The position numbers and the translations under genes are program-made. Under the pieces are notes generated by a model. The model was not told the DNA's origin and did not search any database. It saw nothing but the letters and a program-made list of their open reading frames with translations. This document shows, one piece after another, positions 2,043 to 55,970 of a stretch of DNA of 64,000 nt; positions within the stretch are counted from its first letter, which is position 1; each line of letters opens with the position of its first letter. The stretch comes from Tubiluchus corallicola (Eukaryota > Animalia > Priapulida): positions 1 through 64,000 of the forward strand of contig JAQGDQ010000731.1 in NCBI GenBank assembly GCA_030141605.1, written 5' to 3'.

Positions 2043-4598
2043 ATGGATCAGGCAGTACAAGTAGTTCCTGGATTTGTGAAAATTGAAAGTGATGTTTTAG
2101 ATGAATCCACAGATGTTAAGGTGCAAACTGACAATGTTCCTGTAAAAACCGAAAGTGATGCTGAATCAGTGAAAATAAACATCAACAAATGCAAAGTAGA
2201 AGAGTGTGACAGTCAAGGACATGAAACTTCTGTAAAAACTGAACCTGATGTGAAAATAGGTAACATAGATAACAGTAGCATTGATGTAACTTCACAAAGG
2301 AGAGTTCACACTGGAGAAAAACCTTTTAAGTGTTCTCAGTGTGGGACTGCATTTGCTCACGCACACCATTTAAAAGCACATTTAAGAATCCATTCTGGAG
2401 ATAGACCATTTAAATGTAATCAGTGTGATGCTGCATTTGCTCAGACAAGTGGATTGAAAACACATTGTAGAGTTCACACTGGAGAAAAACCATTCAAATG
2501 CAATCAGTGTGATGCGGCATTTGCTTATACAAGTAGTTTGAAATTTCATTTAAGAATTCACACTGGAGAGAAACCTTTCAAATGCAGTCAATGTGAAGCT
2601 GCATTTGCTCATTCAGGTGGACTGACAGTACATTCAAGGACTCATACAGGAGAGAAACCTTTCAAATGCAGTCAATGTGAAGCTGCATTTGCTCATTCAG
2701 GTGCACTAACAGTACATTCAAGGACTCATACAGGAGAAAAACCTTTCAAGTGTTCTCAGTGTGCTGCTGCATTTGCTCATATAAGTAGTTTGAGAACACA
2801 TTCTAGAACTCACACTGGCGAGAAACCATTCAAGTGCATGCGGTGCAATGCTGCTTTTGCTCAGGCAGGTGGACTGAAAGTACACACAAGAACTCACACG
2901 GCAGAGAAGCCTTTCAAATGTAATCAGTGTGCTGCTGCTTTTACTCAGAGAAGTACTCTGAAAGAACATTTAAGAATCCACTCTGGAGAAAAACCATTTA
3001 AATGTAATCAGTGTGATGCTGCATTTGCTCAGTCAAGTGGATTGAAAAAACATTTAAGAATTCACACTGGAGAAAAACCTTTCAGTTGTAGTCAATGTGG
3101 TGCTGCTTTTGCTCAGGCAGATGGCTTAAAAGTGCATTTAAGAATTCACACTGGAGAGAAACCATTCAAATGTAGTCAATGTGAAGCTGCATTCGCTCGT
3201 TCAGGTGCACTGACAGTACATTCAAGGACTCATACAGGAGAGAAACCTTTCAAATGCAGTCAGTGTGAAGCTGCATTTGCTCATTCAGGTGCACTGACAG
3301 TACACTCAAGAATTCATACTGGAGAAAAACCTTTCAGTTGTAGTCAATGTGGTGCTGCTTTTGCTCAGGCAGATGGCTTAAAAATACATTTAAGAAATCA
3401 CACTGGAGAGAAACCATTCAAGTGTAGTCTGTGTGATGCTGCCTTTACTTCATCAAGTGTTTTGAAAGGCCATTCAAGAACTCATACTGGTGAGAAACCA
3501 TTCAAGTGCATTCGGTGCAATGCTGCTTTCGCTCAGGCAGGCGGACTGAAAGTACACACAAGAACTCACACTGGAGAGAAGCCTTTCAAATGTAATCAGT
3601 GTGCTGCTGCTTTTACTCAGAGAAGTACTCTGAAAGAACATTTTAGAATCCACTCTGGAGAAAAACCATTTAAATGTAATCAGTGCGATGCTGCATTTGC
3701 TCATACAAGTGGATTGAAAAAACATTTAAGAATTCATACTGGAGAAAAACCATTCAGTTGTAGTTTTTGTGGTGCTGATTTTGCTCAGGCAGGTGGCTTA
3801 AAAGTACATTTAAGAATTCACACTGGAGAGAAACCTTTCAAATGCAGTCAGTGTGAAGCTGCATTTGCTCATTCAGGTGCACTGACGGTACATTCAAGGT
3901 CTCATACAGGAGAAAAACCTTTCAAGTGTTCTCAGTGTGATGCTGCATTTGCTCAGACACATAGTCTAAAAGTTCATTTAAGAAATCATTCTGGAGAAAA
4001 ACCATTTAAGTGTAGTCAGTGTGAAACTGCATTTGTTCAGGCAGGTGACTTGACAGTACATTTAAGATCTCATACTGGAGAAAAACCTTTTAAATGTAGT
4101 CAGTGTTGTGCTGCATTTGGTCAGTCAAGCACTCTTAAAGCACATTTTAGAATTCACACTGGAGAGAAACCGTTTAAGTGTTATGAGTGTGATACTGCTT
4201 TTACTCGGAGAAGTGCTCTGAAAGTACATTTAAGAATCCACTCTGGAGAAAAACCTTTTAAGTGTAATCAGTGTGATGCTGCATTTGCTCAGAGAAGTGC
4301 TCTGAAAGTACATGTAAGAATCCACTCTGGAGAAAAACCATTTAAGTGTAGTCTGTGTCATGCTGCATTTGCTCAGAGAAGTGCTCTGAAAGTACATTTA
4401 AGAATCCATTCTGGAGAAAAACCGTTTAAATGTTGTGAGTGTGATGCTGCATTTGCTCAGGCAAGTGGTCTAAGAGTTCATTTAAGAGTTCATTCTGCAG
4501 AAAAACTGTTTAAGTGTAGTCAGTGTAAAGCTGTATTTGTTCAGGCAGGTGACTTAACAGTACATTTAAGATCTCATAATGGAGAAAAAACCTTTTAA
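2043..4598 (+). CDS. Tandem C2H2 zinc-finger protein ZNF-1, 27 intact fingers, acidic N-terminus
   Basis: ORF 1929-4598 with 28-aa C-x2-C-x12-H-x3-H repeats and TGEKPF linkers. A polypyrimidine acceptor ttttttacAG at 2010-2011 implies the first ~28 ORF codons are intronic; the first ATG after it is at 2043 (MDQAVQ). Confidence 0.92.
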   Translation: MDQAVQVVPGFVKIESDVLDESTDVKVQTDNVPVKTESDAESVKININKCKVEECDSQGHETSVKTEPDVKIGNIDNSSIDVTSQRRVHTGEKPFKCSQCGTAFAHAHHLKAHLRIHSGDRPFKCNQCDAAFAQTSGLKTHCRVHTGEKPFKCNQCDAAFAYTSSLKFHLRIHTGEKPFKCSQCEAAFAHSGGLTVHSRTHTGEKPFKCSQCEAAFAHSGALTVHSRTHTGEKPFKCSQCAAAFAHISSLRTHSRTHTGEKPFKCMRCNAAFAQAGGLKVHTRTHTAEKPFKCNQCAAAFTQRSTLKEHLRIHSGEKPFKCNQCDAAFAQSSGLKKHLRIHTGEKPFSCSQCGAAFAQADGLKVHLRIHTGEKPFKCSQCEAAFARSGALTVHSRTHTGEKPFKCSQCEAAFAHSGALTVHSRIHTGEKPFSCSQCGAAFAQADGLKIHLRNHTGEKPFKCSLCDAAFTSSSVLKGHSRTHTGEKPFKCIRCNAAFAQAGGLKVHTRTHTGEKPFKCNQCAAAFTQRSTLKEHFRIHSGEKPFKCNQCDAAFAHTSGLKKHLRIHTGEKPFSCSFCGADFAQAGGLKVHLRIHTGEKPFKCSQCEAAFAHSGALTVHSRSHTGEKPFKCSQCDAAFAQTHSLKVHLRNHSGEKPFKCSQCETAFVQAGDLTVHLRSHTGEKPFKCSQCCAAFGQSSTLKAHFRIHTGEKPFKCYECDTAFTRRSALKVHLRIHSGEKPFKCNQCDAAFAQRSALKVHVRIHSGEKPFKCSLCHAAFAQRSALKVHLRIHSGEKPFKCCECDAAFAQASGLRVHLRVHSAEKLFKCSQCKAVFVQAGDLTVHLRSHNGEKTF

Positions 4599-5447
4599 AT
4601 GTAATCAGTGTAATGCTGCATTTGGTCAGTCAAGCCATCTCAAAGCACATTTTAGAATTCGCACTCGTGAGAAACCTTTCAAGTGCAGTCACTGTGAGGC
4701 TTCATTTGTTAACTCAGGTCATCTTAAAACGCATTGTAGGATTCACACTGGAGAAACCTCATTCAAGTGCAGTCAGTGTGATGCTGCATTTGCTCATATA
4801 TAGGCCATGTGAAAGCACACTTTAGAACTCACACTGGCAAAAAACCGTTCAAGTGCAGTCAGTGTGATGCTGTTTTTACTCATACAAGTAGTTTTAAAGT
4901 GCATTTGAGAACTCACAAACGAGAAAAACCTTGCAGGTGCAATCAGTGTGATGCTGCATATGCTCATACAGATAATCTGAAAGTAAATGCAAGAATTAAC
5001 ATTGGAGAAAAACCATACAAGTGCAATGAGTGCGGTCCTGCATTTACCACATCAGGTAGCCTAAAACACCATTTAAGAAAGCACACTGGAGAAAGACCAT
5101 TCAAGTGTAGTCAGTGTGCTGTTGCATTTGCTTTAACAAGTTCTTTAAACATACGTTCAAAAACTCACTCTCGAATAAAATGGTTTAAGTTTGTCATTGT
5201 GCTGCCACATTTAAATGGTTTAGCAATGTAGAGAGCGCACACTACAAGAAAACTTTTTAGGTGTGATCAGTGTGTTGCTACTTTCCTTAAAGCAGGTAAA
5301 TTAAAGGTACATTCAAGAACTCACAATAGTTCACTTATTTAAGAACTCAAACCATTTAAGTGTATTAAGTGTGATGCTACTTTTGCTTGTTCGGCTTTTC
5401 TAAGTCATCACCATCAAGAGATTCACAAAAGGAAAACATATCTTTAA
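4599..5447 (+). pseudogene. Decayed former 3' part of the ZNF-1 coding exon (about 10 fingers), now out of frame
   Basis: Aligns with ZNF-2 fingers 12-22 up to the same terminal stop. Lesions: +1 A at 4585-4590, 2-nt insertion with TAG at 4801, one finger deleted near 5045, small deletions near 5190 and 5230, TAA at about 5340, and His-to-Arg/Asn changes. Confidence 0.9.
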
Positions 5448-6811
5448 CCCTTTTGCTAGTTAGTTGCTTTTTAACTAGCCATATTGATTTTTGCACGTTT
5501 TTCAAAAACTTCTTGTGGTGTGTTTCTAAAACAGAATCTTGTAAATAAACAAATAGCTGTTCGTTATTGAGTACTAATATTGAATATTTGTTTTATTTCT
5601 ACACATGAACACACATGCATGCATTCACACACACATACACCATTATAAATAAGCATGTACTTATATTTAGAAAGCAGTTTTCACAAATCACATGACAACG
5701 AACAATGATCTTCAAGTGATTTATTAAAGGGAAAGAACAGGGATATTTTAAAGTACATCCAAACAAACTGTCCATGCAAGGTTACATGACTTAACATTAC
5801 CCTTTTGAAAGATTTATGTAACTCGAAAAGAAAATGTTTACTAATTTAAAATATTTGTGCCACCTGGCAAAATGGCACTGCATCGCCATCCCATTAATTC
5901 AGCAGAAAACACAATATTGATCTTATCCACAAGATAAAGTGATTCAAACTTTTGCTTAGTTAGTGACGTGTGCACTGCGAAAGCTCTGATTATTTTTTAA
6001 ACTTTACACAATGTTAAACCTGCTTCAAATGAATTACCATTAAAATGGGTGCAGTTAACAGTCAACAATGAAATTCTATTTTACTAGTTTTACACACGTT
6101 ACTCCTAACATAAACTCCGTGTGCAATACGAGAGTAACTAAGTGATAAAAATTTGCAGGACGAATTTTTTAAGCTTTATTTTTTGCATTTTCTTGTGCTT
6201 TAATCTGGACACTTTATAATGCAAATCCTTTCATACCCACGCAAGTATTTCATACATAAACTTCACGTGATTTTGTTTCTGATGCAAATTCACTTGCAAA
6301 CTGAATAAGTAGAAAAGCTCTTTCAGTTCTGTAAGCTGGCAAAACTTCCTACTAGCGTAATAAATAAATGTAAAAATGGCTTTGCTTAAGTGACAAGATT
6401 TAGCATTAAATTCAGTCTCAAGTCCTCCATGTCTGCTGAAGAAAAGGATACCGATTTGCCAATCGAAAGTAATTTTCCTAAATGAAACGAAAAAGCCTCT
6501 TACTTAAGTTAGTGCATTTAAATCTTTGCAATTAAGTTTGTACATTTAAGTCTTGCACTTAAGTGAGTGCATTTAAGTTAGTGCATTTAAATATTGCACT
6601 TAAGTTTTCACTTAAATTACTTAAAAACCAAAATTAAGATTTAAAAAACTCAAAGACTGGTCTCCTGACTGTAATGAGGCGTGACATTTTTTATCTGGTA
6701 TAACATTTTGCTTACTGGAGAATTTGCTTTGTCGAACTTAATCCTGGACATTTCTCGATACAACAGAACTGATTTTAAAACACCTGTTAGATAAATATGT
6801 ATAATATATAT

Positions 6812-11071: not shown

Positions 11072-13459
11072 ATGATGGATCAGGCAGTACAAGTAGTTCC
11101 TGGATTTGTGAAAATTGAAAGTGATGTTTTAGATGAATCCACAGATGTTAAGGTGCAAACTGACAATGTTCCTGTAAAAACCGAAAGTGATGCTGAATCA
11201 GTGAAAATAAACATCAACAAATGCAAAGTAGAAGATTGTGACAGTCAAGGACATGAAACTTCTGTAAAAACTGAACCTGATGTAAAAATAGGTAACATAG
11301 ATAACAGTAGCATTGATGTAACTTCACAAAGGAATGGAAGACTTAAACCTGAACCAGGTGTTTTAGCTCATGCTGTGGAAGATTTAGCAGATGATAAATT
11401 TTTCGCAAATGTGAACAAAGAATGCAAGGAGCTGCTATCTTTTCAGACTTCTCTTTCTGATCCTGTTGTTAAAGACATTCACAACGTAGCTAATTCCATG
11501 CAAGAATCATGTCAATCACGCAGAATCATATCTGCTATGTCAAGCGCAGTGAAATTGCCTTCACAAGTTCATATTAGTAAGAAGCCTTTCAAGTGTAGTC
11601 AATGTGATGCGGTATTTACTCGTGCATATACTCGGAAAGTGCATTTAAGAATTCACTCTGGAGAAAAACCATTTAAATGTTGTGAGTGTGATGCTGCTTT
11701 TACTCAGAGAAGTTCTCTGAAAGTACATTTAAGAATCCACTCTGGAGAAAAACCATTTAAATGTTGTGAGTGTGATGCTGCTTTTACTCAGAGAAGTGCT
11801 CTGATAGTACATTCAAGAATTCACTCTGGAGAAAAACCGTTTAAATGTGGTGAGTGTGATGCTGCATTTATTCATGCAGGCAATCTCAAAATGCACCTTA
11901 GAATTCACACTACAGAGAAACCTTTCAAGTGCAGTCAGTGTCCTGCTGCGTTTGCTTACTCACGTCATCTCAAAAAACACTTTAGAACTCATACTAAAAA
12001 AAAATCTTTCAAGTGCAGTCACTGTGATGCTTCATTTTCTTGTTCAACCCATCTTAAAACACATTGTAGAGTTCATACTGGAGAAAAACCATTCAAGTGC
12101 AATCAGTGTGATGCTGCATTTGCTTATACAAGTAGTTTGAAATTGCATTTAAGAATTCACACTGGAGAGAAACCTTTCAAATGCAGTCAATGTAAAGCTG
12201 CATTTGCTCATTCAGGTGCACTGACAGTACATTCAAGGACTCATACAGGAGAAAAACCTTTTAAGTGTTCTCAATGTGGGGCTGCATTTGCTCGTGCACA
12301 TCATCTAAAAGCACATTTAAGAATACATTCTGGAGATAAACCATTTAAATGTAATCAGTGTGATGCTGCATTTGCTCAGACTAGTGCTCTAAAAGTTCAT
12401 TTAAGAGTTCACTCTGGAGAAAGGCCATTTAAGTGTAGTCAGTGCGAAGCTGCATTTGTTCAGGCAGGTGACTTGACAGTACATTTAAGGTCTCATACTG
12501 GAGAAAAACCTTTTAAATGTAGTCAGTGTAATGCTGTATTTGGTCAGTCAAGCCATCTCAAAGCACATTTTAGAATTCACACTGGAGAGAAACCTTTCAA
12601 GTGCAGTCACTGTGAGGCTTCATTTGCTAACTCAGGTCATCTTAAGACGCATTCTAGAATTCACACTGGAGAAAGACCATTCAAGTGCAGTCAGTGTGAT
12701 GCTGCATTTACTCATATAAGCCATGTGAAATCACACTTTAGGACTCACACGGGCGAAAAACCATTCAAGTGCGGTCAGTGTGATGCTGCTTTTGCTCATA
12801 CAAGTAGTTTAAAAGTGCATTTGAGAACTCACACTCGAGAAAAACCTTATAAGTGCAATCAGTGTGATGCTGCATATGCTCACACAGATAGTCTGAAAGT
12901 ACATGCAAGAATTCACACTGGAGAAAAACCATACAAGTGCAACGAGTGTGGTGCTGCATTTGCAAGTAGAGGTCGTCTGAAAGTTCATTCAAAAATTCAC
13001 ACTGGCATCAAACTGTTCAAGTGCAATAAGTGTGATGCTGCATTTACCACATCAGGTAGCCTAAAAGACCATTTAAAAAATCACACTGGAGAAAGACCAT
13101 TCAAATGTAGTCAGTGTGATGCTGCATTTGCTTTATCAAGTACTTTAAACATACATTCAAAAACTCACTTGCGAGGAAAATGGTTTAAGTGCCGTCAGTG
13201 TGATGCCACATTTAAATGGTTTAGCAATCTGAAAATACATTCGAGATCTCACACTACAAGAGAACTTTTTAGGTGTGATCAGTGTGATGCTACTTTCCTT
13301 AAAGCAGGTAAATTAAAGGTACATTCAAGAACTCACAAGAGCTCACTTATTCAAGAACTCAAACCATTTAAGTGTATTAAGTGTGATGCTACTTTTGCTT
13401 GTTCGGCTTCTCTAAGTCATCACCATCAAGAGATTCACAAAAGGAAAACATATATTTAA
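11072..13459 (+). CDS. Tandem C2H2 zinc-finger protein ZNF-2, 22 fingers; paralogue of ZNF-1
   Basis: Intact ORF 10961-13459. Acceptor ttttacAG at 11042-11043, then ATG ATG at 11072/11075. The N-terminus is nearly identical to ZNF-1 up to DVTSQR. Confidence 0.94.
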   Translation: MMDQAVQVVPGFVKIESDVLDESTDVKVQTDNVPVKTESDAESVKININKCKVEDCDSQGHETSVKTEPDVKIGNIDNSSIDVTSQRNGRLKPEPGVLAHAVEDLADDKFFANVNKECKELLSFQTSLSDPVVKDIHNVANSMQESCQSRRIISAMSSAVKLPSQVHISKKPFKCSQCDAVFTRAYTRKVHLRIHSGEKPFKCCECDAAFTQRSSLKVHLRIHSGEKPFKCCECDAAFTQRSALIVHSRIHSGEKPFKCGECDAAFIHAGNLKMHLRIHTTEKPFKCSQCPAAFAYSRHLKKHFRTHTKKKSFKCSHCDASFSCSTHLKTHCRVHTGEKPFKCNQCDAAFAYTSSLKLHLRIHTGEKPFKCSQCKAAFAHSGALTVHSRTHTGEKPFKCSQCGAAFARAHHLKAHLRIHSGDKPFKCNQCDAAFAQTSALKVHLRVHSGERPFKCSQCEAAFVQAGDLTVHLRSHTGEKPFKCSQCNAVFGQSSHLKAHFRIHTGEKPFKCSHCEASFANSGHLKTHSRIHTGERPFKCSQCDAAFTHISHVKSHFRTHTGEKPFKCGQCDAAFAHTSSLKVHLRTHTREKPYKCNQCDAAYAHTDSLKVHARIHTGEKPYKCNECGAAFASRGRLKVHSKIHTGIKLFKCNKCDAAFTTSGSLKDHLKNHTGERPFKCSQCDAAFALSSTLNIHSKTHLRGKWFKCRQCDATFKWFSNLKIHSRSHTTRELFRCDQCDATFLKAGKLKVHSRTHKSSLIQELKPFKCIKCDATFACSASLSHHHQEIHKRKTYI

Positions 13460-17150: not shown

Positions 17151-18263
17151 TCATATAGAAGCAGTATTTCGTGGACATCGTTTTCGTGACTTTACGCGTG
17201 TATGGCTTACCAGATGACGCTTCAAACTGCGAGGATCAACATAAGCAGCTGCACACAGCTCACACTTAAATGGCTTTTCTCCTGTGTGAGTTCTCAAGTG
17301 AAACTTCAATGTGCGTGACTCAGAAAATGCAGAACCACATTCCTCACATACAAATGGTTTCTCTCCAGTGTGAATTCTCTGGTGGTTCTTTAGATTGGTT
17401 GCTGAACTGAGTGCAGCACCGCATTGAAAACACTTAAATGGTTTTTCGCCAGTGTGAGTTTTGAGGTGATCTTTTAAATTACTTGACTGAACAAAAGCAG
17501 CTGTGCAGTAAGTGCACTTGAAGCGTTTGTCTCCAATATGCATTCTCACGTGTCTTGTCAAAGTGCCAGACTCAGAAAAGGCAGCAGGACAAAGAGTACA
17601 TTGAAAAGGTTTTTCCCCAGTGTGAATTCTGGCATGACGTCTAAAGCTACTCGAGTCAGAAAAAGCAGCTGCACATTTGTCGCATTTGTAAGGCTTTTCT
17701 CCGGTGTGAATTCTCAAGTGCTGCTTGAGGTGATTTGATCTAGCAAAAGCAGCTTCACATTCGCTGCATTTGTAAGGTTTTTCTCCGGTGTGAGTTCTTA
17801 CATGTTGGGTCAAATTCCCAGAATAAGTAAAGGCAGCGTCGCAATAAAGGCACAAATAACGCTTTTTTCTTGTGAGGGTTTTCAAATGTCTCTCGTCGTT
17901 CCCTACATTAAACTGGTCAAGTGTTTCGGCTGATGCATTGTCTTCAGTCTTTGCATCAGTAAACTCAGCTTGAAGGTCAACGTCTGATGGTTCATTCCCA
18001 TCAATATTTGCATCAGTAAACTCAGTTTGAGGATCAACAACTGATGGTTCGTTCCCATCAATATTTGCATCAGTAAACTCAGTTTGAGGATCAACAACTG
18101 ATGGATCATTCCCTTCAATATTTTCACTTTCATCTGATTCCGTTTTAAAAGACACAAAGTGATCTTGCTCATCTAGACTTGTTGGCACATCATCATCACT
18201 TCCATTAATTTCCGTTTCTTCAGACTTCGTTTTCAAGAAAACTGATTCCACCGTCTTGTTCAT
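17151..18263 (-). CDS. C2H2 zinc-finger protein ZNF-3, 8 fingers, acidic N-terminus with a 19-aa repeat x3
   Basis: ORF 17151-18275. Minus-strand acceptor gtttttacAG at 18292-18291 is followed by an in-frame TGA, then ATG at 18263. A 57-bp coding repeat lies at about 17950-18121. Confidence 0.92.
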   Translation of the reverse strand: MNKTVESVFLKTKSEETEINGSDDDVPTSLDEQDHFVSFKTESDESENIEGNDPSVVDPQTEFTDANIDGNEPSVVDPQTEFTDANIDGNEPSDVDLQAEFTDAKTEDNASAETLDQFNVGNDERHLKTLTRKKRYLCLYCDAAFTYSGNLTQHVRTHTGEKPYKCSECEAAFARSNHLKQHLRIHTGEKPYKCDKCAAAFSDSSSFRRHARIHTGEKPFQCTLCPAAFSESGTLTRHVRMHIGDKRFKCTYCTAAFVQSSNLKDHLKTHTGEKPFKCFQCGAALSSATNLKNHQRIHTGEKPFVCEECGSAFSESRTLKFHLRTHTGEKPFKCELCAAAYVDPRSLKRHLVSHTRVKSRKRCPRNTASI

Positions 18264-18344
18264 CTCAGCCGACAAAAACTTAACTCACTTCTGTAAAAAC
18301 AAATAAATAATTAACTTAATTAACTGACTGACACCAGACAGCAT

Positions 18345-18790
18345 GTGTATGCCTGCATTGCAAAACAGTCCATAACTCAGCAATTAAGCTTTTCCAGTTA
18401 TTCACATATCCTTAATCTCCATTTCACCACGATGATTTTGATACCAAGTTTATCGCTCTATGTTTTTCTAAGCTGAGATAATCCACACTGAACTTGAGAT
18501 GCAGGCCATGCAGTGAAAAATCATAAACTTGAGAAAAATCATTGTTAAAGTTAGCCATTATTTTGTGTTGCATTTCTAATAAACACTTAGCAACCGCGCA
18601 AATATTGGTTGCTACAGACTTAAAGAGAGCACATTGAAATTATGTTTAAATCCAGTAGATGGCTCTTCTTGATGAAGATCTGGGTTTGGCAACGGAAAAT
18701 ACCCAAAGCAAAATGACTGATTCCAGAAACTGCTATCGAAATTTGAAAATACAAGTTTTTTGTAGTTGCATTATTAATTTCTAGCCTGAA
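18345..18790 (+). mobile_element. Dispersed repeat family R2 (probable non-autonomous DNA transposon)
   Basis: tgtttaaatccagtagatggctcttcttgatgaagatctgggtttggcaacggaaaa recurs in reverse complement at about 31520, 32520 and 52800. Confidence 0.75.
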
Positions 18791-19200
18791 AGTGGATACG
18801 GGGTTGAGGTATTAGATTTTTAGTATTTTTCAACCTTTGATAATTTGAAGCTAGAATATAAAAGTGCAGTATATTTAGCATTTGTTTTGACGAAAAACAA
18901 AGAATTGACATTTGAACAAATTTTTGGTGCATTCTACTTTTGGTGCAATCATAACATAGTTTTAACTATGCTGACTCACGGACAGTTTTGGTTTGCAAGT
19001 GCACATATGCCGTCTGAAGTAACGAAATGAAGTGTCGTGGGTAAGCTATAAAATCACGTGACAGGGGAATCACCGTACAAAGAAGTGAGAGGCAAAAGAA
19101 TAGGAAAATGTAGTGTAAATTTTTATAAAGCAACCAAAAAAGGTCATTTCGCATTTACTCTAGCAAAGTGTAACTGGTTTTTGCAAATTTGACTTTACCT

Positions 19201-20068: not shown

Positions 20069-20859
20069 ACAAATTACATGTCTAATACAGGCCGCTCCTA
20101 TGCAATTTACTTAAAAACTGTCGGTAATTGACTCAAATAACTTCGCATAATTGACTCTATATATTTCCTTCACGTACTTAAAAACAAAACACCTTGTTTG
20201 TGACCAAAGAGCTTTTACTGTTTTTAAATCATCTTTACGTCGATTTTGTGCACTATAATATATGTAGAACATTACATTATCATATCTGCTAATATGGAAG
20301 CATAGTGGTGACTGCAATTAGACTCTTTGGTTCTGTAAGCTAAACATTTAATCACTTCACCATCAGTTTGTTTTTGAAGCCCCTGCTGTTTTTGAAACAA
20401 GGTCATCACCAACTGCAGCTCAAGCACTAAGTGACTAGGTGTTTTGAGTGAATATGTGCAGCCTATGACAACAGATTTTCAACGTTTTTACCACTATCAG
20501 AATTTCATAAACTACTTCTTGGTGAAAAAATTAATCTTCATTTGCCTGTAATCTACTGTACATAAAATTTACCAGTTAATTGCCATGAAGTCACTCTTTC
20601 CAATACAGGATGCCCTGGTAGGTAGGCAGTTTCATTAGTCATGAAATTTAAAAGAATTTTTATTTAGGTCCTAATAGGGCCAAAAACTTTTCGAAATATT
20701 TCCGAAAAAAAAATTCTGATTTATTTATTCAGTCACAGAAAATTATGCAATGCCAACAATTTCTTTATTCAGTCACATGTCATAACTTTTTGACCGAATA
20801 ATGTCATGTTCAGTATTTTTAGTGTTCTATAGTTATCTCAAATAATAATGTTCATTTTC

Positions 20860-21545
20860 ACAGAACTCTATACACAACGTCAGAAATGTACAGGGCATAG
20901 AAACGCTGACTGCCCGCGAGCAATCGTGAGAGCAGCACAGATCATCATGTTGCACTAAGCAATCATATCGATTAGGTGATCGATCTGCAAAAATCGACCC
21001 GCACCTGGACTCTGGTAGAGTACACAAACACCAACTGTGACGCGCAAGCGGTTAAAACGTAGTTCAAACAATTTGTGATATTAGTAGTTGTAATCAGTAG
21101 ACAATCTATTTGCAACTTTTTGTAGCTTACGCTACATCGCCAATAATTATCAATAACGAGGTACAAAATTGAGAGCTGATCATTGGACGTGTAACTTAGC
21201 TAATGTCCTACATCAAGAAACGCAAACCTGAACATCTAAACGCAATTTACGATCACGTTTATTCAGCACTTCCTGCAGTTCCTTTATTTGTACAAAAAAG
21301 AAGAGTAAATCTTACATTTTAATACAGAATTTTATTACAGCAAGATTACAGCAACTTTGCATTATTTTCCGAGTCAGAAGTAACCATCTTAATGCTTTCA
21401 TGGAGTTCTTAGCGCACCGCTTTTCGACAAGTGGTGAAAACGCTTTATTTCAGGTCCAATTTATTGCTTCCACCATCATTTAAAAATTTTGCTCTTTTTA
21501 CAAATAATTAGTCTACCACTAGTTCAGATTCAGTGCTCAGTAAGT
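20860..21545. promoter_or_regulatory. Candidate bidirectional promoter and 5'UTR exons for head-to-head ZNF-3 (-) and ZNF-4 (+)
   Basis: Local CpG enrichment, ETS-like cacttcc at about 21268, plus-strand donor GTAAGT at 21540 and minus-strand donor-like GTAAGC at about 21130. Inference only. Confidence 0.4.
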
Positions 21546-22308: not shown

Positions 22309-22342
<34 letters not shown>

Positions 22343-23745: not shown

Positions 23746-25221
23746 ATGAATGAACCTGAGAAACCGGATTCTGTCGTTGTAAAAGATGAAGTCAATGTTA
23801 CACAAAATACAGTAGGAGATTCTTATAAGGAAGATCCATTAGAACATGATATAAAAGTCGATGTTTTAACTGTAAAAGCAGAAAATATTTCAGCAGTTAA
23901 TGTAGAAAACAGTTTACATGTTGAAGGAACAAATTACGATGTTAAAGCTGTTGATATGTTCATAAAATTATCTGATGGTAAGTTAGTTAGAAGCGATAAG
24001 TTAAAGTCACACATTAATTCATGTGCGGATGACATGCCTTTTAAATGTGAGTATTGCCATGCTGCTTATCGTCACTATGGATCTTTAAAGCGACACTTGA
24101 GAAAACATACCGGTGAAAAACCATTTAAATGCACTCAGTGCAATTCTGCTTTCATTCAATCATACAGCTTAAAGATTCATTTGAGAACTCACACAGGTGA
24201 GAAACCGTTTCAATGTAATTACTGTGATGCAGCTTTTCCTCACATGGCAGGAGTGAAAAGCCACTTGCGAACTCACACTGGAGAAAGGCCTTTCAAGTGT
24301 GAGCATTGTGAATCTGCTTTTCGCTGGTCAAGTGACTTAAAACGGCACTTGAGATCCCACACAGGCGAGAAACCATTTAAGTGTAAACAGTGTGAGGTTG
24401 CTTTTACCTGGGCGAGTGCTTTGAAGCAACACGTACAAACACACACAAGGGTGAAAGCATTTAAATGTATTGAGTGTGATGCTGCTTTTGGAAGATCAAG
24501 CCATTTACAGCGGCACATGCAATCTCACACTGGACAGAAGCCATTCAAATGTTATCAGTGCAGTGGTAGTTTCACTCAGATGAGTACATTGAAGGCTCAT
24601 CAAAGGATTCACACAACAGAAAAGCCATTTAAATGCGATAAGTGTGAATCTGCTTTTGCTTGGTCAACTAATTTAAAAAGGCATGCAAAAACTCATTTGG
24701 GAAAGAAGACATTTAAATGTAAGCAGCATGGTATTGCTTTCGCTAGTGCAAGTATTTTGAACAATCATTTAAAAACACACATTGACAAAAAGCAATTCAA
24801 GTGTGTTGAGTGTTCTGCAGCATTTGTTCAGTCAGGTCATTTGAAAGAGCACCAAAAAACTTACAGTAAAGCAAAAACTTATATATGTGTCCAGTGCGAT
24901 GCATCCTTTGCTCGGTCACACACGTTGAAGCAACACTTGAGGATTCACACAGGAGAGAAACCTTACAAATGTGGTAATTGTCATGTTGCTTTCACTCAAT
25001 CAGGATCACTAAGAGAACATCAGAGGATCCACACAGGAGAAAAACCTTTTATGTGTTCACGTTGTGGTGCTGCTTTTATAAGCTCAAGTCATTTGAAAAG
25101 ACATTTACAAACTCACACAGTGGAAAAGCCTTACAAGTGTTCACAGTGTGATGCTGCCTTTAAACACTCTGGCACACTTAAGAATCATCTAAAGATACAC
25201 ACAGGAGAAAAAATACTTTAA
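23746..25221 (+). CDS. C2H2 zinc-finger protein ZNF-4, 14 fingers (fingers 9 and 10 degenerate)
   Basis: ORF 23722-25221. Acceptor tttcatttcAG at 23712-23713; first ATG at 23746. The frame is open back to the acceptor, so an upstream coding exon is possible. Confidence 0.92.
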   Translation: MNEPEKPDSVVVKDEVNVTQNTVGDSYKEDPLEHDIKVDVLTVKAENISAVNVENSLHVEGTNYDVKAVDMFIKLSDGKLVRSDKLKSHINSCADDMPFKCEYCHAAYRHYGSLKRHLRKHTGEKPFKCTQCNSAFIQSYSLKIHLRTHTGEKPFQCNYCDAAFPHMAGVKSHLRTHTGERPFKCEHCESAFRWSSDLKRHLRSHTGEKPFKCKQCEVAFTWASALKQHVQTHTRVKAFKCIECDAAFGRSSHLQRHMQSHTGQKPFKCYQCSGSFTQMSTLKAHQRIHTTEKPFKCDKCESAFAWSTNLKRHAKTHLGKKTFKCKQHGIAFASASILNNHLKTHIDKKQFKCVECSAAFVQSGHLKEHQKTYSKAKTYICVQCDASFARSHTLKQHLRIHTGEKPYKCGNCHVAFTQSGSLREHQRIHTGEKPFMCSRCGAAFISSSHLKRHLQTHTVEKPYKCSQCDAAFKHSGTLKNHLKIHTGEKIL

Positions 25222-26532: not shown

Positions 26533-27739
26533 TTATACTATTATTAGCAATCTCTATTGCTTAATTCAGCAGAAAAAATGTGGTGTGATAAAAGAGGAAC
26601 TACGTTCTCTTTCAGAGGATGACAATTTCAATCAGTAGTCAGTGAATTTTTACTTAATGCTAGTGATTTACCTGATTTTAATCAGTTAATCAGGACATCA
26701 AAGGTATTTTAACTAATACAATATAACCTGTTAATTATCTTTTTTGTAATTATTTTTTGTTACATAACATTCTCATTTTTGGCTTTTGTATTGTTTGTAC
26801 TTGTATTGAAAAATATGTACTGTACTAACAAGTATGTAATAAAATCATGATAATAATAAAAAAGCAGAATTCATAATAATAAATTATTAATTCAGTTAAC
26901 GTTTTCGAAACTTTACTGTTTAATCAGTACAATAGAAAGACAAACCAACTGAGCAAAATCATAATAGTTATTCATCTAAATAAATTATATAGGTGCTACA
27001 ATAGAGAAAGAATATCACAATATTATCACAATAACGAATGACTTAAGTTACGATAGTAAAATAGAGGATGTTCCAAAAGAAACTGCACAGCAGAAACCTG
27101 ACAAATTATAACAAAATTAATACTGATATAAGGTAAGTAATACATTACTTCAAAGCAGTAAGCATAATACAATTTTATGTATAAGAAAACTTGTTATCCA
27201 TATTTTCTACTGTCTCTTGCAGCAATTATTCCTAATGCACTTTTAACATTGAGCGGTACATTTAATTCCGCATTTACACAAAACTGAAAATACCGATTGA
27301 GGTAGTTTTAAGTGACTTTAATTTGTCCCAGTGAGAATCATTAAGTATTCAAGTTATTAATTGAAGAATTATCGAATTTCTCTAAACCACCTGCTCTAGG
27401 ACTGCAAAAAAGTTGGTACTAAGCAAGTTTTGTTTATTATAACGAGGTGGATTAATACACACACGTCTAAACAAATACAGCCAGTTCGCATTATAAGTGG
27501 GTGGGGAGGTAGGGGGTGTCTGACTACATTAAAAATAATCATTGTCATTTACGGAACATCTAAATGTTACGTTAAGTTGTTTCTCTAAAAAAACAACTAA
27601 ATAAACAAAACTTTGTAGCACAAATTGTTTATAAAATTACTTTTAATGGCAACATTTTTTCTGCAGATCTGCGTGACACACAATTTTGAGTTTAACTGCA
27701 CCATTCGAAATAGGTCTTATAAGACTTATGAATTTTCTG

Positions 27740-28385
27740 TTACTGTATGCACACAGACATAACTAAATGATTACAAATTAGGTATTATTCTGTTCAGAAG
27801 AACCTCGGCTATGAAATCATGCTATTTGCTTAAGCATTTATGACTGATTTAGTTGGATAAAGTAAAGAAAATCGCACCTTTTTCAGGCACCGCAACTTAG
27901 GCTATTAAGTAACCTATTCTGGTGTGCACTTGCTTGATCGTACACTTTATTTTATTGATTATCTGCTTGCCAAAACCCAAGAGAACCGTCTACTATACAG
28001 ACTTCCAGGAAAAACCAACCGATCAGCCAAATAGAAATTAACGTCATTTCATCTTTCAGCTGGAATTTATTGTTAAAAATAGAGCAGACTTGCAGCGAAA
28101 GTGTATCAGATTGTTGCATCTCAATAGTTGAAATTATCTGCACCAGCCAATTTCACACAAGTAATACTGTACATTGTTACAGTGCAAACACTGCAGTTAC
28201 TAAAAGCTTTTTCAATTTTTATGTCAAAAATCAATTTTTAATTTGACGAAAGCAAGCAAGTGCAAGTCCACATATAATCTTGCGAAAAAATGGATGGAGT
28301 GAGGAGTAGAAACCTACAAAAATTATCAAATGCTGTAATCACTGCTTAATAAGTGCGCAGATTTGTGATCAAACCTGGAGTTAAA
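27740..28385 (+). mobile_element. Dispersed repeat family R1 (probable non-autonomous transposon)
   Basis: acacagacataactaaatgatt...ttttcaggcac...ctggtgtgcacttgcttgatcgtacac...gagtagaaacctacaaaaattatc is shared with 46295-46740 (+), 37600-38170 (-) and 33270-33490 (-). Confidence 0.75.
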
Positions 28386-28405: not shown

Positions 28406-30244
28406 TTAACTAATTTCGTTTAATTTTTTAGTATTACTGACTAATTTGAAATACTTAGCACTTGACGCATTTAGATGTGTTCTTCTGTGCTGTTGCAAAT
28501 TTGAAGACCAAGCAAATACTGCATCGCATTGGTCGCACTTAAATGGCTTTTCCCCGGTATGAGTTCTCTTATGGTGCTTCAGATCAGTAGCCCATGTAAA
28601 GGTGGCTTCGCAGTGAGAACACTTAAATGGTTTCTCTCCACTGTGGACTTTTCTGTGCTTGTAGAGAGAAGATGACCGTGCAAAGGCATCTCCACATTCG
28701 GTACACATAAATGGCTTCACACCAGTATGAGTTATCACATGTGCAGACAAACCGTTAGCCCCAGCAAATGTAGCATCACACAGGGTACATTTAAATGGCT
28801 TCTCACCAGTGTGGCTTCTTTTATGACGTTTTAGGTTACTAGCCTGTATAAAAGCAGCTCCGCACTCACTGCACAAAAACTGTTTCTCACCCATGTGAGT
28901 TTTTTTGTGCCTGTTCAAATTTGAAGTACAAGTAAAAGTGGCCTCACATTCACTACATTTAAAAGGTTTCTCGACAGTGTGCACTTTCCCATGCTTCTTT
29001 AAATCTGACACTTGAAGAAATGCTACTCCGCATACAGTACACATAAATGGTTTTTTATTGGCGTGTTTTTCCCCATGAGAGTTTAGAGTGGAGGTATATG
29101 TAAAAGCAGCATGGCAATCAGTACATTTGCATGGTTTTTTACAGACAGGAGTTTCTGTATGCTGATTTAGCTGAGATTCAAGTGTGGTGTCACATTCATT
29201 ACATTCAACTAGTTCATCATTGTCACCTTTTGCAGTTACGTTCAATATAGGTTTGTGTTTAAACATTAGCCTAGACTCATATTGAAAAGGCACGACATCT
29301 GATGACTGATTTGGCTTAACGGGCATCCCAGAATTCAGCACATCAACTTGCTTTTGACTGTAGAAAGCTGGTGATGATAACTCTGAATGTAACGGATTAC
29401 TTAGTGTTGATCTCGGCTCAGTCACTAAATTAGTTTCATCAGTTGATGAAACACTTGGTTTAGTCACCAAATTAGCGCCATTAGTTGACACTGCACTTGG
29501 TTCAGTCACCACGTTGGCTCCACCAGTTGACACTGCACTTGGTTCAGTCACCACGTTGGCTCCACCAGTTGACACCGCACTTGGTTCAGTCACCACGTTG
29601 GTTTCACCAGTTGACACCACACTTGGTTCAGTCATCACATTGGTTTCACCAGCTGACACTGCACTTGGTTCAGTCATCATGTTGGTTTCACCAGCTGACA
29701 CTGCACTTGGTTCAGTCATCACATTGGTTTCACCAGTTGATGCTGCACTTGGTTCAGTTACCACGTTGGTTTCACCAGTTGACGCCGCACTTGGTTCAGT
29801 CACCACATTGGTTTCACCAGTTGACGCCGCACTTGGTTCAGTCACCACATTGGTTTCACCAGCTGACACTGCACTTGGTTCAGTCACCACGTTGGCTCCA
29901 CCAGTTGACACTGCACTTGGTTCAGTCATCACGTTGGTTTCACTAGCTGATGCTCCACTTGATTCAGTCACCACATTGGTTTCACCAGTTGACCCTGCAC
30001 ATGGTTCAGTCATCACGCTGGTTCCGCCAGTTGATGCTGCACTTGGTTCAGTAACCACGTTGGTTTCACCAGTTGATGCTGCACTTGGTTCAGTAACCAC
30101 GTTGGTTTCACCAGTTGATGCTGCACTTGGTTCAGTAACCACGTTGGTTTCACCAGTTGATGCTGCACTTGGTTCAGTCACCAAATTTGTTCCACCAGTT
30201 GATGTTGCATGATGCCCTGGCTGACTGATGCATGGCTGAATCAT
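28406..30244 (-). CDS. C2H2 zinc-finger protein ZNF-5, 8 fingers plus 1 degenerate, N-terminal 14-aa Ser/Thr-rich repeat x19
   Basis: ORF 28406-30274 has an in-frame TAA at 30283-30281 and first ATG at 30244. Candidate 5'UTR intron 30404-30518 (cag|GTAAAT ... tttctgcAG). Confidence 0.9.
   Translation of the reverse strand: MIQPCISQPGHHATSTGGTNLVTEPSAASTGETNVVTEPSAASTGETNVVTEPSAASTGETNVVTEPSAASTGGTSVMTEPCAGSTGETNVVTESSGASASETNVMTEPSAVSTGGANVVTEPSAVSAGETNVVTEPSAASTGETNVVTEPSAASTGETNVVTEPSAASTGETNVMTEPSAVSAGETNMMTEPSAVSAGETNVMTEPSVVSTGETNVVTEPSAVSTGGANVVTEPSAVSTGGANVVTEPSAVSTNGANLVTKPSVSSTDETNLVTEPRSTLSNPLHSELSSPAFYSQKQVDVLNSGMPVKPNQSSDVVPFQYESRLMFKHKPILNVTAKGDNDELVECNECDTTLESQLNQHTETPVCKKPCKCTDCHAAFTYTSTLNSHGEKHANKKPFMCTVCGVAFLQVSDLKKHGKVHTVEKPFKCSECEATFTCTSNLNRHKKTHMGEKQFLCSECGAAFIQASNLKRHKRSHTGEKPFKCTLCDATFAGANGLSAHVITHTGVKPFMCTECGDAFARSSSLYKHRKVHSGEKPFKCSHCEATFTWATDLKHHKRTHTGEKPFKCDQCDAVFAWSSNLQQHRRTHLNASSAKYFKLVSNTKKLNEIS
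29410..30205 (-). repeat. Coding 42-bp minisatellite x19 (STGETNVVTEPSAA)
   Basis: Unit ttggttcagtcaccacgttggtttcaccagttgatgctgcac on the plus strand; 19 units counted in the protein. Confidence 0.95.
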
Positions 30245-30629
30245 GCTCAACAGTTGTGATTTGCAATTTTTCAATGTTGGTTAAAAGCTTCCGTGTGCTT
30301 TTTACTTTTCAGCTAAAAAGGTAATTTCCAAAAAATCACTGAATTTGCAAAAACAGCGCAGCCAATTACGTAAATTAGGGTGGGGTTGATTGACAAATTC
30401 CTTCTGCAGAAATGTTTATAATTTTTACAATGTTCTAAATTTAGCTAATTAAATTATATTAATTACTAGTGGCAACTGCCACATTGTCACATATAAATAA
30501 TAATAGTCTGTAATTTACCTGGTTACAAACCACGTCAGGTACAACATGGCTAAAAGTACAGGCTGCACTGATAAACATTTTTCACTCAGACAGTTGGCAA
30601 CGGCAACAGCAGAAAGATGGGCATGTTGC

Positions 30630-30665
30630 TCCGTCATCATTTTGCGCACTTCCGGATGCGTGTTT
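30630..30665 (-). promoter_or_regulatory. Candidate ZNF-5 core promoter (ETS/GABP-type CCGGAAGTG followed by YY1-like caaaatga)
   Basis: The minus strand reads ccggaagtgcgcaaaatgatgacgg about 130 nt upstream of the splice donor at 30518. Confidence 0.45.
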
Positions 30666-33269: not shown

Positions 33270-33490
33270 TATGATCATTTTTGTAGGTTTCTACTCTTTG
33301 CACTATGAATTTTAATGCAAAATTATTATAAACTGCATTAACTTACCTTAGACTGGTCATCGGCTGATCAGTAGGTTTTTCCCAGAATAGCAGCAGAACA
33401 CTCCACAGTTTGAGCTTTAGCAAAAACATGCGAGCAGTAAAGTAGTTTGTACTATCATGTAGGTGTACACCAGACTAATTAAACATAATT
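33270..33490 (-). mobile_element. R1 family copy (internally deleted)
   Basis: tttttgtaggtttctactc...ggtttttcccagaatagcagcagaac...gtgtacaccagact matches 37660-38045. Confidence 0.7.
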
Positions 33491-37194: not shown

Positions 37195-50360
<13,166 letters not shown>

Positions 50361-52689: not shown

Positions 52690-52880
52690 AAAGCCCGTGC
52701 CCACTTTTCTGTCTAGAAACTAATACTACGATTGAGAAGAACTTGTGTTTTCAAACTCCTAGTATCTCATGACAGAAACCATTTTGCTTTCGTTGTTTTT
52801 TCTGTTGCCAAGTCTAGATCTTCGTCTGGGTGAGCCATCGACTGGACTTATACACCTTTCGTACAGTTGCTAAGTAGTAG
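52690..52880 (-). mobile_element. R2 family fragment
   Basis: tttttctgttgccaagtctagatcttcgtctgggtgagccatcgactggactta matches the other R2 copies. Confidence 0.65.
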
Positions 52881-54578: not shown

Positions 54579-55970
54579 ATGGATCAGGAAGTGACATTGG
54601 ACACAACATCTGTGAAAGTTAAATCTGACATTGTAGTAAACGTGTCAAAGGACTCCACTGACAGCAAAACAGCAGATGATAATGTAGAAAATAACAACAC
54701 GCAAGTAAAAACTGAAGATGATATTTCAACAACTATTATAGAAAGTAGTGAAGCAGCAGATTGCAGATTTGAAAGTAATGAAATTTTTGTAAAAACTGAA
54801 CATGGCGTATTTGCTGAAAATATTATGGAAAATAGTGATGTTTGTAAAGCATTTTACACTATGAATAAGCCACCTAATCTTATGAACAAGAAAACTGATT
54901 ATAATCGCTTAGCAAATTCTTCAACCAATTGCTTGGAAGATGAAACAACTTATGCAAGTGTTTCAGTTGATGCCTTGGAAAGTTGTTCACAAGGTTCAAT
55001 GACTGATTGTCTATTAGCTGTAACAGAACGTGAATGTTTATCTCAATCAGTAGAAAATGTTCAAAATTGTTTGCCATGCAAAAGTGAGGTTTGTGATTCT
55101 GCTTCTGAATGCCATCAGAATGAGATGTTTTTCAATCATTCAGATTTGACTGGATCATACAATCTCACTTCAGATGTACAAACAACAAATTCACCATGTC
55201 AGCCTTATAAGTGCAGTCATTGTGCTTCTTTATTTCTTCGATCAAGTGATTTCAAAGAGCATCAAAGAATTCACATGGAAGATAAGCCCTTCAAGTGTAC
55301 TCAGTGTGATGCTTCTTTTGCTCGGTTTCGTGAATTGAAATTGCACATGAGGTCTCACACTGGGGAAAAACCTTTTCCATGCACACAGTGCAATGCTGCT
55401 TTTGCTCGAAGACCTTATTTAAAACGACATATGATAACACACTCAGGTGAAAAACCTTTTAAGTGTACATGGTGTTCTAGTGCTTTTGGTATTCCTAGTA
55501 AGTTGAAAGAACATATAAGAAATCATACAGGCGAAAGACTTTTCAGATGCACGTGGTGTGATGCTAGTTTTACTCGCTCACATTATTTAAAGAATCACGT
55601 GAGGATACATACAGGCGAAAGACCATTTAAGTGCACATACTGTGATGCTGCATTTACACAACATCATGGTTTGAAGCAGCATCTGAGGAGACATACTGGG
55701 GAAAAACCATTCAAGTGTACTCTGTGTGATGCTGTTTTTGCTAGTACCCATAGTCTCAAGTGTCACATGAGGTGTCATTCAGGAGAAAAACCATTCAAGT
55801 GCACGCAATGTAATGCTGCTTTTGCTCAGCCTAGTAATTTGAAAGAGCATATAAAAATTCATACAGGGGAAAAACCTTATAAGTGTACTCTGTGCTCTGC
55901 CAGTTTTTCTCACTCTAACAGTTTGAAACGGCATGTTAAGAGTCATACAAGAAAAACTTTTAAGAAATAG
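54579..55970 (+). CDS. C2H2 zinc-finger protein ZNF-6, 9 fingers, acidic N-terminus
   Basis: ORF 54570-55970. Acceptor tttttgcAG at 54551-54552; ATG at 54579. The start MDQEVTLDTTSVKVKSD resembles ZNF-1/2 MDQAVQVVPGFVKIESD. Confidence 0.93.
   Translation: MDQEVTLDTTSVKVKSDIVVNVSKDSTDSKTADDNVENNNTQVKTEDDISTTIIESSEAADCRFESNEIFVKTEHGVFAENIMENSDVCKAFYTMNKPPNLMNKKTDYNRLANSSTNCLEDETTYASVSVDALESCSQGSMTDCLLAVTERECLSQSVENVQNCLPCKSEVCDSASECHQNEMFFNHSDLTGSYNLTSDVQTTNSPCQPYKCSHCASLFLRSSDFKEHQRIHMEDKPFKCTQCDASFARFRELKLHMRSHTGEKPFPCTQCNAAFARRPYLKRHMITHSGEKPFKCTWCSSAFGIPSKLKEHIRNHTGERLFRCTWCDASFTRSHYLKNHVRIHTGERPFKCTYCDAAFTQHHGLKQHLRRHTGEKPFKCTLCDAVFASTHSLKCHMRCHSGEKPFKCTQCNAAFAQPSNLKEHIKIHTGEKPYKCTLCSASFSHSNSLKRHVKSHTRKTFKK

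What the first reader, a model, noticed from the sequence alone, without database searches (positions are those of the whole stretch)
2043..55970. KRAB-less tandem ZNF family whose only shared non-finger feature is clustered psi-K-x-E (SUMO-type) motifs: candidate lineage-specific repressor or TE-surveillance system
Seen: six single-coding-exon C2H2 genes with acidic N-termini that are barely alignable yet keep reusing one motif. ZNF-1/2 have VKIESD, VKTESD, CKVE and VKTEPD (plus LKPEP in ZNF-2); ZNF-3 has FKTESDE and AKTED; ZNF-4 has VKDE and VKAE (plus LKVE just after the acceptor); ZNF-6 has VKTEDD and VKTEH. In ZNF-3 and ZNF-5 an in-frame stop between acceptor and ATG excludes an upstream effector exon via those acceptors. 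Fingers carry a family signature C-x2-C-x-A-A-F instead of the usual CGKxF. Known: psi-K-x-E with downstream acidic residues is the SUMO acceptor (NDSM) consensus; SUMO recruits H3K9 silencing machinery; vertebrate KRAB-ZNF clusters repress transposons. Inference: an independently expanded ZNF family using poly-SUMO tails as its effector, sitting among the transposons it may target.
Basis: partly seen in the sequence, partly recalled or inferred. Interest (0 to 1): 0.8.

Follow-up and report, generated by a model that had tools for sequence, protein, structure and literature searches.

The report
Zinc-finger cluster with SUMO-motif heads
Six related zinc-finger genes of an unidentified animal sit in one cluster, and five begin with an acidic stretch enriched in SUMO-attachment motifs that likely helps them repress their targets, but the same motif-rich heads occur on zinc-finger proteins of fish, insects and other animals, so this is likely one more case of a widespread design, and a role against transposons is untested.

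Summary
The six C2H2 genes and the quoted motifs are real. Psi-K-x-E is enriched in the N-termini: 9 observed, 1.14 expected over five distinct genes, 0 of 10,000 shuffles. Corrections: ZNF-1/2 are one recent duplicate (2 changes in 86 codons); ZNF-5 has no motif; ZNF-2 and ZNF-6 heads align (37% over 84 aa), so the motifs are inherited. No KRAB, ZAD, BTB, SCAN or SET match in 326 flanking ORFs or the six heads; the heads have no homologue in 1.84 billion proteins. The main result goes against novelty: among 240 retrieved ZNFs the motif is enriched 6.0-fold in 39 named non-tetrapod proteins (29 with two or more), 1.8-fold in 154 KRAB-bearing ones; psi-R-x-E is not enriched. The scan noted the same layout in seven other windows from other genomes. 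No transposon targeting is shown: local repeats are old and non-coding, and contact residues show no positive selection. No splice data were obtained. Best reading: a lineage-specific ZNF family with likely SUMO-dependent repressive tails. The open idea is the general one: such tails may be the default effector of KRAB-less ZNFs.

The parts
2043..4598 (+). ZNF-1: 851 aa, 27 fingers, 94-aa head with VKIE, VKTE, VKTE; recent duplicate of ZNF-2 lacking ZNF-2 residues 87-171, with internal finger-block duplications
4599..5448 (+). Decayed 3' tail of ZNF-1: copy of the last fingers of ZNF-2 broken by frameshifts and stops
11072..13459 (+). ZNF-2: 794 aa from the second of two tandem ATGs (11075), 22 fingers, 171-aa head with VKIE(12), VKTE(34), VKTE(64), LKPE(90); acceptor at 11044, phase 2, open
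17151..18263 (-). ZNF-3: 370 aa, 8 fingers, 135-aa head (27% D/E) with FKTE(39) and a 19-aa repeat x3; acceptor at 18290, phase 0, in-frame stop before the ATG
23746..25221 (+). ZNF-4: 491 aa, 12 fingers, 98-aa head with VKDE(12), VKAE(43); acceptor at 23714, phase 1, open, with LKVE in frame before the ATG
28406..30244 (-). ZNF-5: 612 aa, 8 fingers, 369-aa head made mostly of 19 copies of a 14-aa Ser/Thr/Glu unit; no psi-K-x-E; acceptor at 30312, phase 1, two in-frame stops
54579..55970 (+). ZNF-6: 463 aa, 9 fingers, 209-aa head with VKTE(43), VKTE(71); first 82 aa align with ZNF-2; acceptor at 54553, phase 1, open
30519..30665 (-). Candidate first exon of ZNF-5: CCGGAAGT motif, a donor-like site at its end and a short ORF with no Pfam match (unverified)
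20800..21300 (.). CpG-rich patch at low read depth between the divergent ZNF-3 and ZNF-4; candidate shared promoter (unverified)
18282..19105 (.). High-copy non-coding repeat upstream of ZNF-3 (contig depth in the thousands); three more copies at 31446-31852, 32296-32774, 52585-52854, 70-73% identical
27695..28348 (.). Second non-coding repeat family; other copies or pieces at 33260-33478, 37613-38253, 46232-46683, 70-80% identical
362..651 (-). About 290-bp insertion present upstream of ZNF-1 and absent from the ZNF-2 copy; A/B-box-like head and (TAA)n tail read by eye, SINE-like

Best explanation
These six genes are paralogues of one lineage-restricted tandem C2H2 family, and five carry an acidic head enriched in psi-K-x-E motifs that is likely unfolded, likely SUMOylated and likely serves as their repressive effector in place of a folded domain such as KRAB. 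Shown: the genes, the motif excess, shared descent of at least the ZNF-1/2 and ZNF-6 heads, no catalogued effector domain, finger turnover by duplication and deletion. Inferred: (1) the finger arrays bind DNA; (2) Ubc9 with an E3 ligase attaches SUMO to several of the lysines (about 0.8); (3) the SUMO moieties recruit SIM-bearing co-repressors and dampen or silence the bound loci (about 0.55); (4) repeats or transposons are the main targets (about 0.3). The design is not special to this lineage: KRAB-less tandem ZNFs of many animals carry the same kind of tail. ZNF-5 lacks the motifs and would work otherwise.
For: Motif excess 9 vs 1.14, and 5 vs 0.03 for the longer psi-K-x-E-[SDP]-D form, a pattern chosen after seeing the data; the psi-R-x-E control is 0 vs 0.25 here and not enriched in the named animal groups, so the lysine matters. 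Motifs stay in register between ZNF-2 and ZNF-6 while their fingers are only about 69% identical in DNA. No KRAB/ZAD/BTB/SCAN/SET match in 326 of 326 flanking ORFs of 45 aa or more or in 6 of 6 heads. Acceptor phases differ (2, 0, 1, 1, 1) and two genes have stops before the ATG. No CtBP, HP1 or EH1 motif and no SIM excess in the heads (patterns recalled). AlphaFold gives no confident fold (mean pLDDT 38, alignment of 4). The window genes are each other's nearest neighbours by finger-scaffold profile among 246 proteins, ZNF-5 being the loosest. In human cells SUMO motifs mattered in at least 149 of 166 repression domains that hold one (10.1101/2022.08.26.505496, passages). Motif density falls where KRAB is present: 0.89 per 100 aa in 39 named non-tetrapods, 0.45 in 38 KRAB-less tetrapod, 0.25 in 154 KRAB-bearing proteins; window 0.87.
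Against: ZNF-5 has none and ZNF-3 only one canonical site. In the Drosophila screen SUMO sites were no more frequent in repressive domains than in other fragments (PMC9890238, passage); 12.3% of human non-repressing tiles also hold the motif. Acidic heads can equally be activators (recalled). ZNF-4 and ZNF-6 are open in phase 1 and ZNF-4 has LKVE in frame before its ATG, which hints at upstream coding sequence. Contact positions in 14 close finger pairs show pN 0.08 against pS 0.135 overall (other positions pN 0.036): faster change but no positive selection. The comparison set is biased and not independent (orthologues, internal repeats), and KRAB-less vs KRAB-bearing tetrapods differ only at p 0.08.
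Confidence: 0.55

Rival explanations
1. Ordinary lineage-specific transcription factors for host genes; SUMOylation of the head tunes stability, nuclear location or synergy rather than being the effector, and the acidic head may activate.
For: The motif is enriched even in KRAB-bearing proteins (1.8-fold); no SUMO-site enrichment in Drosophila repressive domains; ZNF-3 to -6 are old, intact paralogues (fingers 62-70% identical in DNA) with no sign of positive selection in the testable pairs; cephalopod C2H2 expansions are tied to nervous-system expression and their link to transposons is called open (PMC12513265, passages).
Against: Density is three to four times higher where no KRAB is present; no other known repression or folded module was found in the heads.
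Confidence: 0.25
2. The real effector lies in an unseen upstream coding exon, and the motif-rich stretch is only the linker, as in ZAD-, SET- or FiNZ-type genes.
For: Open frame from acceptor to ATG in ZNF-1/2, -4, -6; three genes share phase 1; LKVE before the ZNF-4 ATG; ZAD- and SET-bearing ZNFs of other animals also carry psi-K-x-E linkers (P0045, P0073, P0047, P0176); exons shorter than 45 codons were not scanned and the ZNF-1 upstream region runs off the window.
Against: 0 of 326 flanking ORFs match such a domain; stops in ZNF-3 and ZNF-5; differing phases; all six ATGs have a purine at -3 and lie 26-68 nt after the acceptor; self-BLAST shows no upstream block shared among ZNF-3 to -6 other than repeats.
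Confidence: 0.12
3. Dedicated transposon-surveillance system of KRAB/FiNZ type, in an arms race with young elements, including the repeats in this window.
For: Rapid finger duplication and deletion in ZNF-1/2; metazoan-wide correlation of ZNF and retroelement numbers and de-repression after FiNZ knockdown (PMC10547256, passages and Discussion).
Against: No transposase or reverse-transcriptase match in 326 ORFs; local repeat copies are 70-80% identical, so old; pN below pS at contact positions; no binding data.
Confidence: 0.25
4. The motifs are a by-product of composition or of small internal duplications of one word, with no function.
For: psi-K pairs are themselves in excess (24 vs 13); heads contain tandem repeats; four of the nine sites are the same word, VKTE.
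Against: Composition-matched shuffles reject chance; the Arg control is not enriched; the pattern recurs in unrelated heads across phyla.
Confidence: 0.05

Closest known systems
FiNZ-ZNF genes of cyprinid fish (Wells et al. 2023, PMC10547256; passages, Discussion and part of the supplements read; PMC11603059 passages)
   Same: Lineage-specific, clustered tandem C2H2 genes with an acidic N-terminal piece that matches no known domain; a cyprinid protein retrieved here (P0088) has 8 psi-K-x-E sites in its non-finger parts.
   Different: FiNZ is a conserved 28-aa unit on its own coding exon; here head and fingers share one exon, the heads are poorly conserved and one has no motif. FiNZ genes show positive selection and knockdown de-represses transposons; neither is shown here. 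The proposed FiNZ cofactor is TRIM33; 'SUMO' does not occur in either main text.
KRAB-ZNF genes of tetrapods
   Same: Tandem cluster, one finger exon, TGEKP linkers, finger duplication and deletion, decaying copies.
   Different: No KRAB match; Ala instead of Lys after the second Cys (0 of 85 Lys here; Ala in 7 of 3165 tetrapod fingers); KRAB-bearing proteins have about a quarter of the motif density.
KRAB-less tandem ZNFs of teleosts, insects, crustaceans, molluscs, sea urchin, Clytia and lamprey (P0020, P0160, P0163, P0035, P0152, P0145, P0176, P0214, P0227, P0002)
   Same: Acidic non-finger segments with clusters of psi-K-x-E at the same density; Ala-type fingers in Oratosquilla, Aplysia and Solemya.
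   Different: No sequence homology of the heads (0 hits); some carry ZAD or SET in addition; none of those listed is functionally characterised to my knowledge.
SUMO-site repression domains of human factors such as SP3 and MGA (10.1101/2022.08.26.505496, passages)
   Same: Short psi-K-x-E sites in unstructured regions as the feature needed for repression.
   Different: Measured in human cells on mostly conserved factors; not shown for a lineage-specific invertebrate family, and not enriched in the Drosophila screen.

Membership tests
Tandem C2H2 ZNF genes (five or more fingers) | Array of at least five C2H2 fingers with TGEKP-type linkers | tested here: met
   8 to 27 fingers per gene; Pfam PF00096 and PF13465 above cut-off in 6 of 6
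KRAB-ZNF | KRAB-A domain on an upstream exon | tested here: not met
   No match in 326 ORFs of 45 aa or more or in the six heads; shorter exons and DNA left of the window not covered
ZAD-, BTB-, SCAN- or SET/PR-ZNF | The named folded domain N-terminal to the fingers | tested here: not met
   Same scans; domains split over exons shorter than 45 codons could be missed
FiNZ-ZNF | Acidic unit on a separate first coding exon | tested here: not met
   Motif-bearing head and fingers lie in one uninterrupted ORF in all genes; upstream exons unverified
FiNZ-ZNF | Sequence similarity to the 28-aa FiNZ consensus | tested here: inconclusive
   The consensus was not found as text; the head profile found 0 proteins in 1.84 billion, which argues against homology
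Transposon-repressing ZNF families (KRAB, FiNZ) | Positive selection on DNA-contact residues | tested here: inconclusive
   14 finger pairs from ZNF-1/2 only: contact pN 0.08, other pN 0.036, pS 0.135; not above neutral, small sample
Transposon-repressing ZNF families (KRAB, FiNZ) | Binding to transposons and de-repression on loss | not testable with these tools
   No genome is held, no binding predictor or ChIP data
SUMO-site repression domains | psi-K-x-E in excess of composition | tested here: met
   9 vs 1.14 pooled; absent from ZNF-5
SUMO-site repression domains | NDSM-type acidic patch after the core motif | tested here: inconclusive
   7 of 9 sites have two or more D/E in the next ten residues, mean 2.3 vs 1.9 expected
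SUMO-site repression domains | SUMO conjugation and lysine-dependent repression | not testable with these tools
   Needs bench assays

The most novel reading that the evidence does not exclude
Clustered SUMO-acceptor sites in a disordered acidic tail are the default, repeatedly re-invented repressive effector of KRAB-less tandem zinc-finger families across animals, from cnidarians to teleosts, and folded handles such as KRAB partly replaced them; this cluster is one instance in which the tail is the only effector. My paper searches found no paper that states this.
Probability: 0.35. Interest if true: 0.75.

Novelty: new member of a known kind. Interest (0 to 1): 0.33.

Why it matters
How the many KRAB-less zinc-finger expansions of invertebrates and fish act on chromatin is open: Wells et al. 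say so for FiNZ and for 'dozens' of other families. A short, easily evolved SUMO tail would explain how new families gain repressive power without a folded domain, and it is testable with simple lysine mutants. This locus by itself adds little: it is one more example, from an unidentified animal without a held genome or transcripts, and one of its six genes lacks the motif.

Tried and rejected
Whole genome: none held, so genome-wide paralogues, MEME-type analysis and repeat families could not be examined. Transcripts: no RNA holder listed. One stretch, 17870-24030, was laid on two runs: X1 covers intron and repeat sequence and behaves as DNA; X2 matched only repeats; none of the 15 joints shown, of 30, has GT..AG or CT..AC ends; so no evidence on upstream exons either way, and the ZNF-1 frameshifts were not checked against reads. 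Homologues of the heads: 0 of 214 candidates at E up to 10; 0 of 1.84 billion with a four-sequence profile (a poor alignment, so weak). Whole-protein searches returned only generic finger matches (best 120 of 7913 and 120 of 7924) and did not name the organism. ESM Atlas gave no answer. Rfam 0 matches; ARAGORN 0 genes. A guess from memory that the repeats look bryozoan is unverified; a paper search on it found nothing. Inverted SUMO motifs (5 vs 2.36, p 0.08), SIM-like words (7 vs 11.6), CtBP, HP1 and EH1 motifs (0 each) are not enriched. The AlphaFold model was too poor for a fold search. PMC11749891 (Panoramix SUMOylation) was not held and is known only from a reference list. No complex prediction was run. 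Dropped before counts: ZNF-1 in pooled tests; ORFs under 45 aa, low-complexity ORFs and ORFs overlapping the ZNF genes in the Pfam scan; 9 unnamed proteins in the KRAB comparison (231 of 240 used). Three supplementary files of PMC10547256 and all bioRxiv supplements were not seen and may bear on the claim that SUMO motifs were not noted.
Full report
Setting. The window is 34% G+C animal DNA with spliceosomal introns, many short tandem repeats and CpG depletion (o/e 0.53). No genome is held and the organism was not identified. Six long ORFs encode C2H2 arrays of 27, 22, 8, 12, 8 and 9 fingers at the coordinates listed under parts. An EGF-trypsin gene lies between ZNF-5 and ZNF-6.

Observation. 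Counting [VILFM]-K-x-E in the heads gives 3, 4, 1, 2, 0, 2. Because ZNF-1 and ZNF-2 differ at only 2 of their first 86 codons, ZNF-1 was left out of pooled tests. The other five give 9 against 1.14 expected, with 0 of 10,000 composition-matched shuffles reaching it; without ZNF-2, 5 against 0.83, p 0.0007. ZNF-5 contributes nothing: its head is mostly a 14-aa unit repeated 19 times with no lysine in the first 110 residues. The acidic tail of the NDSM consensus is barely above composition (2.3 vs 1.9). The ZNF-2 and ZNF-6 heads align at 31 of 84 residues, E 2e-6, with the motifs in register, so these are inherited sites in a diverging homologous head and not independent reuse.

Family. Ala follows the second Cys by two places in 71 of 85 fingers and Lys in none; the full A-A-F occurs in 50 of 85. 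By finger-scaffold profile the six genes are each other's nearest neighbours among 246 proteins; ZNF-5 is the loosest and is outranked by one or two outside proteins in the lists of ZNF-3 and ZNF-6. The heads have no detectable homologue. So a lineage-restricted expansion is likely. The Ala signature is a lineage marker but not unique: it dominates in two Oratosquilla proteins (8 of 12, 11 of 18 fingers) and an Aplysia protein (14 of 21). ZNF-1 shows active turnover: loss of ZNF-2 residues 87-171, internal finger blocks 90-99% identical, and a decayed copy of the last ZNF-2 fingers behind a frameshift. ZNF-3 to -6 are old; their fingers are 62-70% identical in DNA on average.

Is there a hidden effector exon? 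Pfam scans of 326 flanking ORFs of 45 aa or more (both strands) and of the six heads gave no KRAB, zf-AD, BTB, SCAN or SET match; the only credible hits were EGF and trypsin exons. The acceptors lie 26-68 nt before the ATG in phases 2, 2, 0, 1, 1, 1; ZNF-3 and ZNF-5 have in-frame stops there, while ZNF-1/2, -4 and -6 are open and ZNF-4 has LKVE in frame. This favours non-coding first exons but does not prove them. The head of ZNF-2 gives no confident fold (pLDDT 38, shallow alignment), which is weak support for disorder.

Is the motif special to this lineage? No. I used the 240 proteins listed by two finger searches as a comparison set and shuffled their non-finger segments. Fold enrichment of psi-K-x-E: teleosts 7.7 (15 of 17 with two or more sites), arthropods 5.8 (8 of 9), other named non-tetrapods 3.5 (3 of 7; Clytia 7 sites, lamprey 5, sea urchin 4), molluscs and nemerteans 2.8 (3 of 6), amphibians 1.9 (20 of 50), amniotes 2.2 (57 of 142); the window gives 7.5. 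The control psi-R-x-E is at or below expectation in all named groups and 3 vs 2.0 in the nine unnamed proteins. Split by the listed KRAB annotation: 0.25 sites per 100 aa in 154 KRAB-bearing tetrapod proteins, 0.45 in 38 KRAB-less tetrapod proteins (p 0.08) and 0.89 in 39 named non-tetrapods (p 3e-7 against the KRAB set). The set is biased and its members are not independent, so these p-values are only indicative. After this measurement I looked up the scan's earlier notes: 7 of 8 listed describe the same layout in other genomes; they are unchecked AI notes and add no independent proof.

Transposons. Read depth shows high-copy repeats at 18282-19105, 19930-20547 and 21578-22401. Copies within the window are 70-80% identical and match no transposase or reverse transcriptase. 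A SINE-like insertion at 362-651 is younger than the ZNF-1/2 duplication or was lost from the other copy. Nothing links the fingers to these elements. In 14 close finger pairs, contact positions change about twice as fast as the scaffold (pN 0.08 vs 0.036) but stay below the synonymous rate (0.135), so positive selection is not shown.

Mechanism. The most likely reading is that the arrays bind DNA and the heads are multiply SUMOylated and recruit SIM-bearing co-repressors. The support is indirect. In a human screen, SUMO motifs mattered in at least 149 of 166 repression domains that hold one, but 12.3% of non-hits also hold one (10.1101/2022.08.26.505496, passages). In a Drosophila screen the sites were not enriched in repressive domains (PMC9890238, passage). 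The link from SUMO to H3K9 methylation in invertebrates is recalled and was seen only as titles in a reference list. I put SUMOylation at about 0.8, repression at about 0.55 and transposons as main targets at about 0.3.

Comparison and novelty. The closest described system is the FiNZ family (PMC10547256; passages, Discussion, seven supplementary files searched, three not), which is acidic and lineage-specific but has a conserved unit on its own exon and direct evidence of transposon repression. Membership in KRAB, ZAD, BTB, SCAN, SET and FiNZ families fails on the tested features. Lineage-specific C2H2 clusters are well known (also PMC12513265, passages). The word SUMO does not occur in the main text of PMC10547256, PMC11603059 or PMC12513265, and seven searches found no paper that proposes SUMO tails as the general effector of KRAB-less families; subscription journals are largely missing from that library. 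Verdict: a new member of a known kind, interest 0.33; the cross-phylum generalisation is the part worth pursuing.

Noticed in passing
window 38900-50220 (+): A multi-exon serine protease gene between ZNF-5 and ZNF-6: an EGF exon near 38900-39017 (Pfam EGF), a second EGF-like exon near 40845-40961 that holds an in-frame stop (read by eye), and trypsin exons near 45026, 45939, 47849, 49258 and 50044 with the His, Asp and Ser motifs present.
   Followed up: partly
window 61110-61373 (-): An exon of a second trypsin-like gene on the minus strand (Pfam Trypsin E 3e-7).
   Followed up: no
window 29418-30209: ZNF-5 head: 42-bp unit x19 kept in frame, Ser/Thr/Glu-rich and almost free of lysine; a natural motif-less control within the family.
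   Followed up: partly
window 30519-30665 (-): The candidate first exon of ZNF-5 holds a 40-codon ORF that would stop just after the likely splice junction, so a possible upstream ORF; no Pfam match.
   Followed up: partly
window 14040-14504: A 68-bp tandem repeat x7 whose unit matches part of the second dispersed repeat family (14458-14518 vs 37940-38000, 88%): a minisatellite grown from a repeat fragment.
   Followed up: no
window 39730-40137: A 24-bp unit x17 that resembles the start of the nearby EGF exon, inside a partial duplicate of 38786-38917.
   Followed up: no
window 2043-4598 and 11075-13459: ZNF-1 and ZNF-2 coding regions are far more CpG-depleted (o/e 0.16, 0.28) than the window (0.53); may reflect gene-body methylation or amplification of CpG-poor fingers.
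   Followed up: no
proteins P0001-P0240: psi-K-x-E density in non-finger segments falls from non-tetrapod to KRAB-less tetrapod to KRAB-bearing ZNFs (0.89, 0.45, 0.25 per 100 aa).
   Followed up: partly
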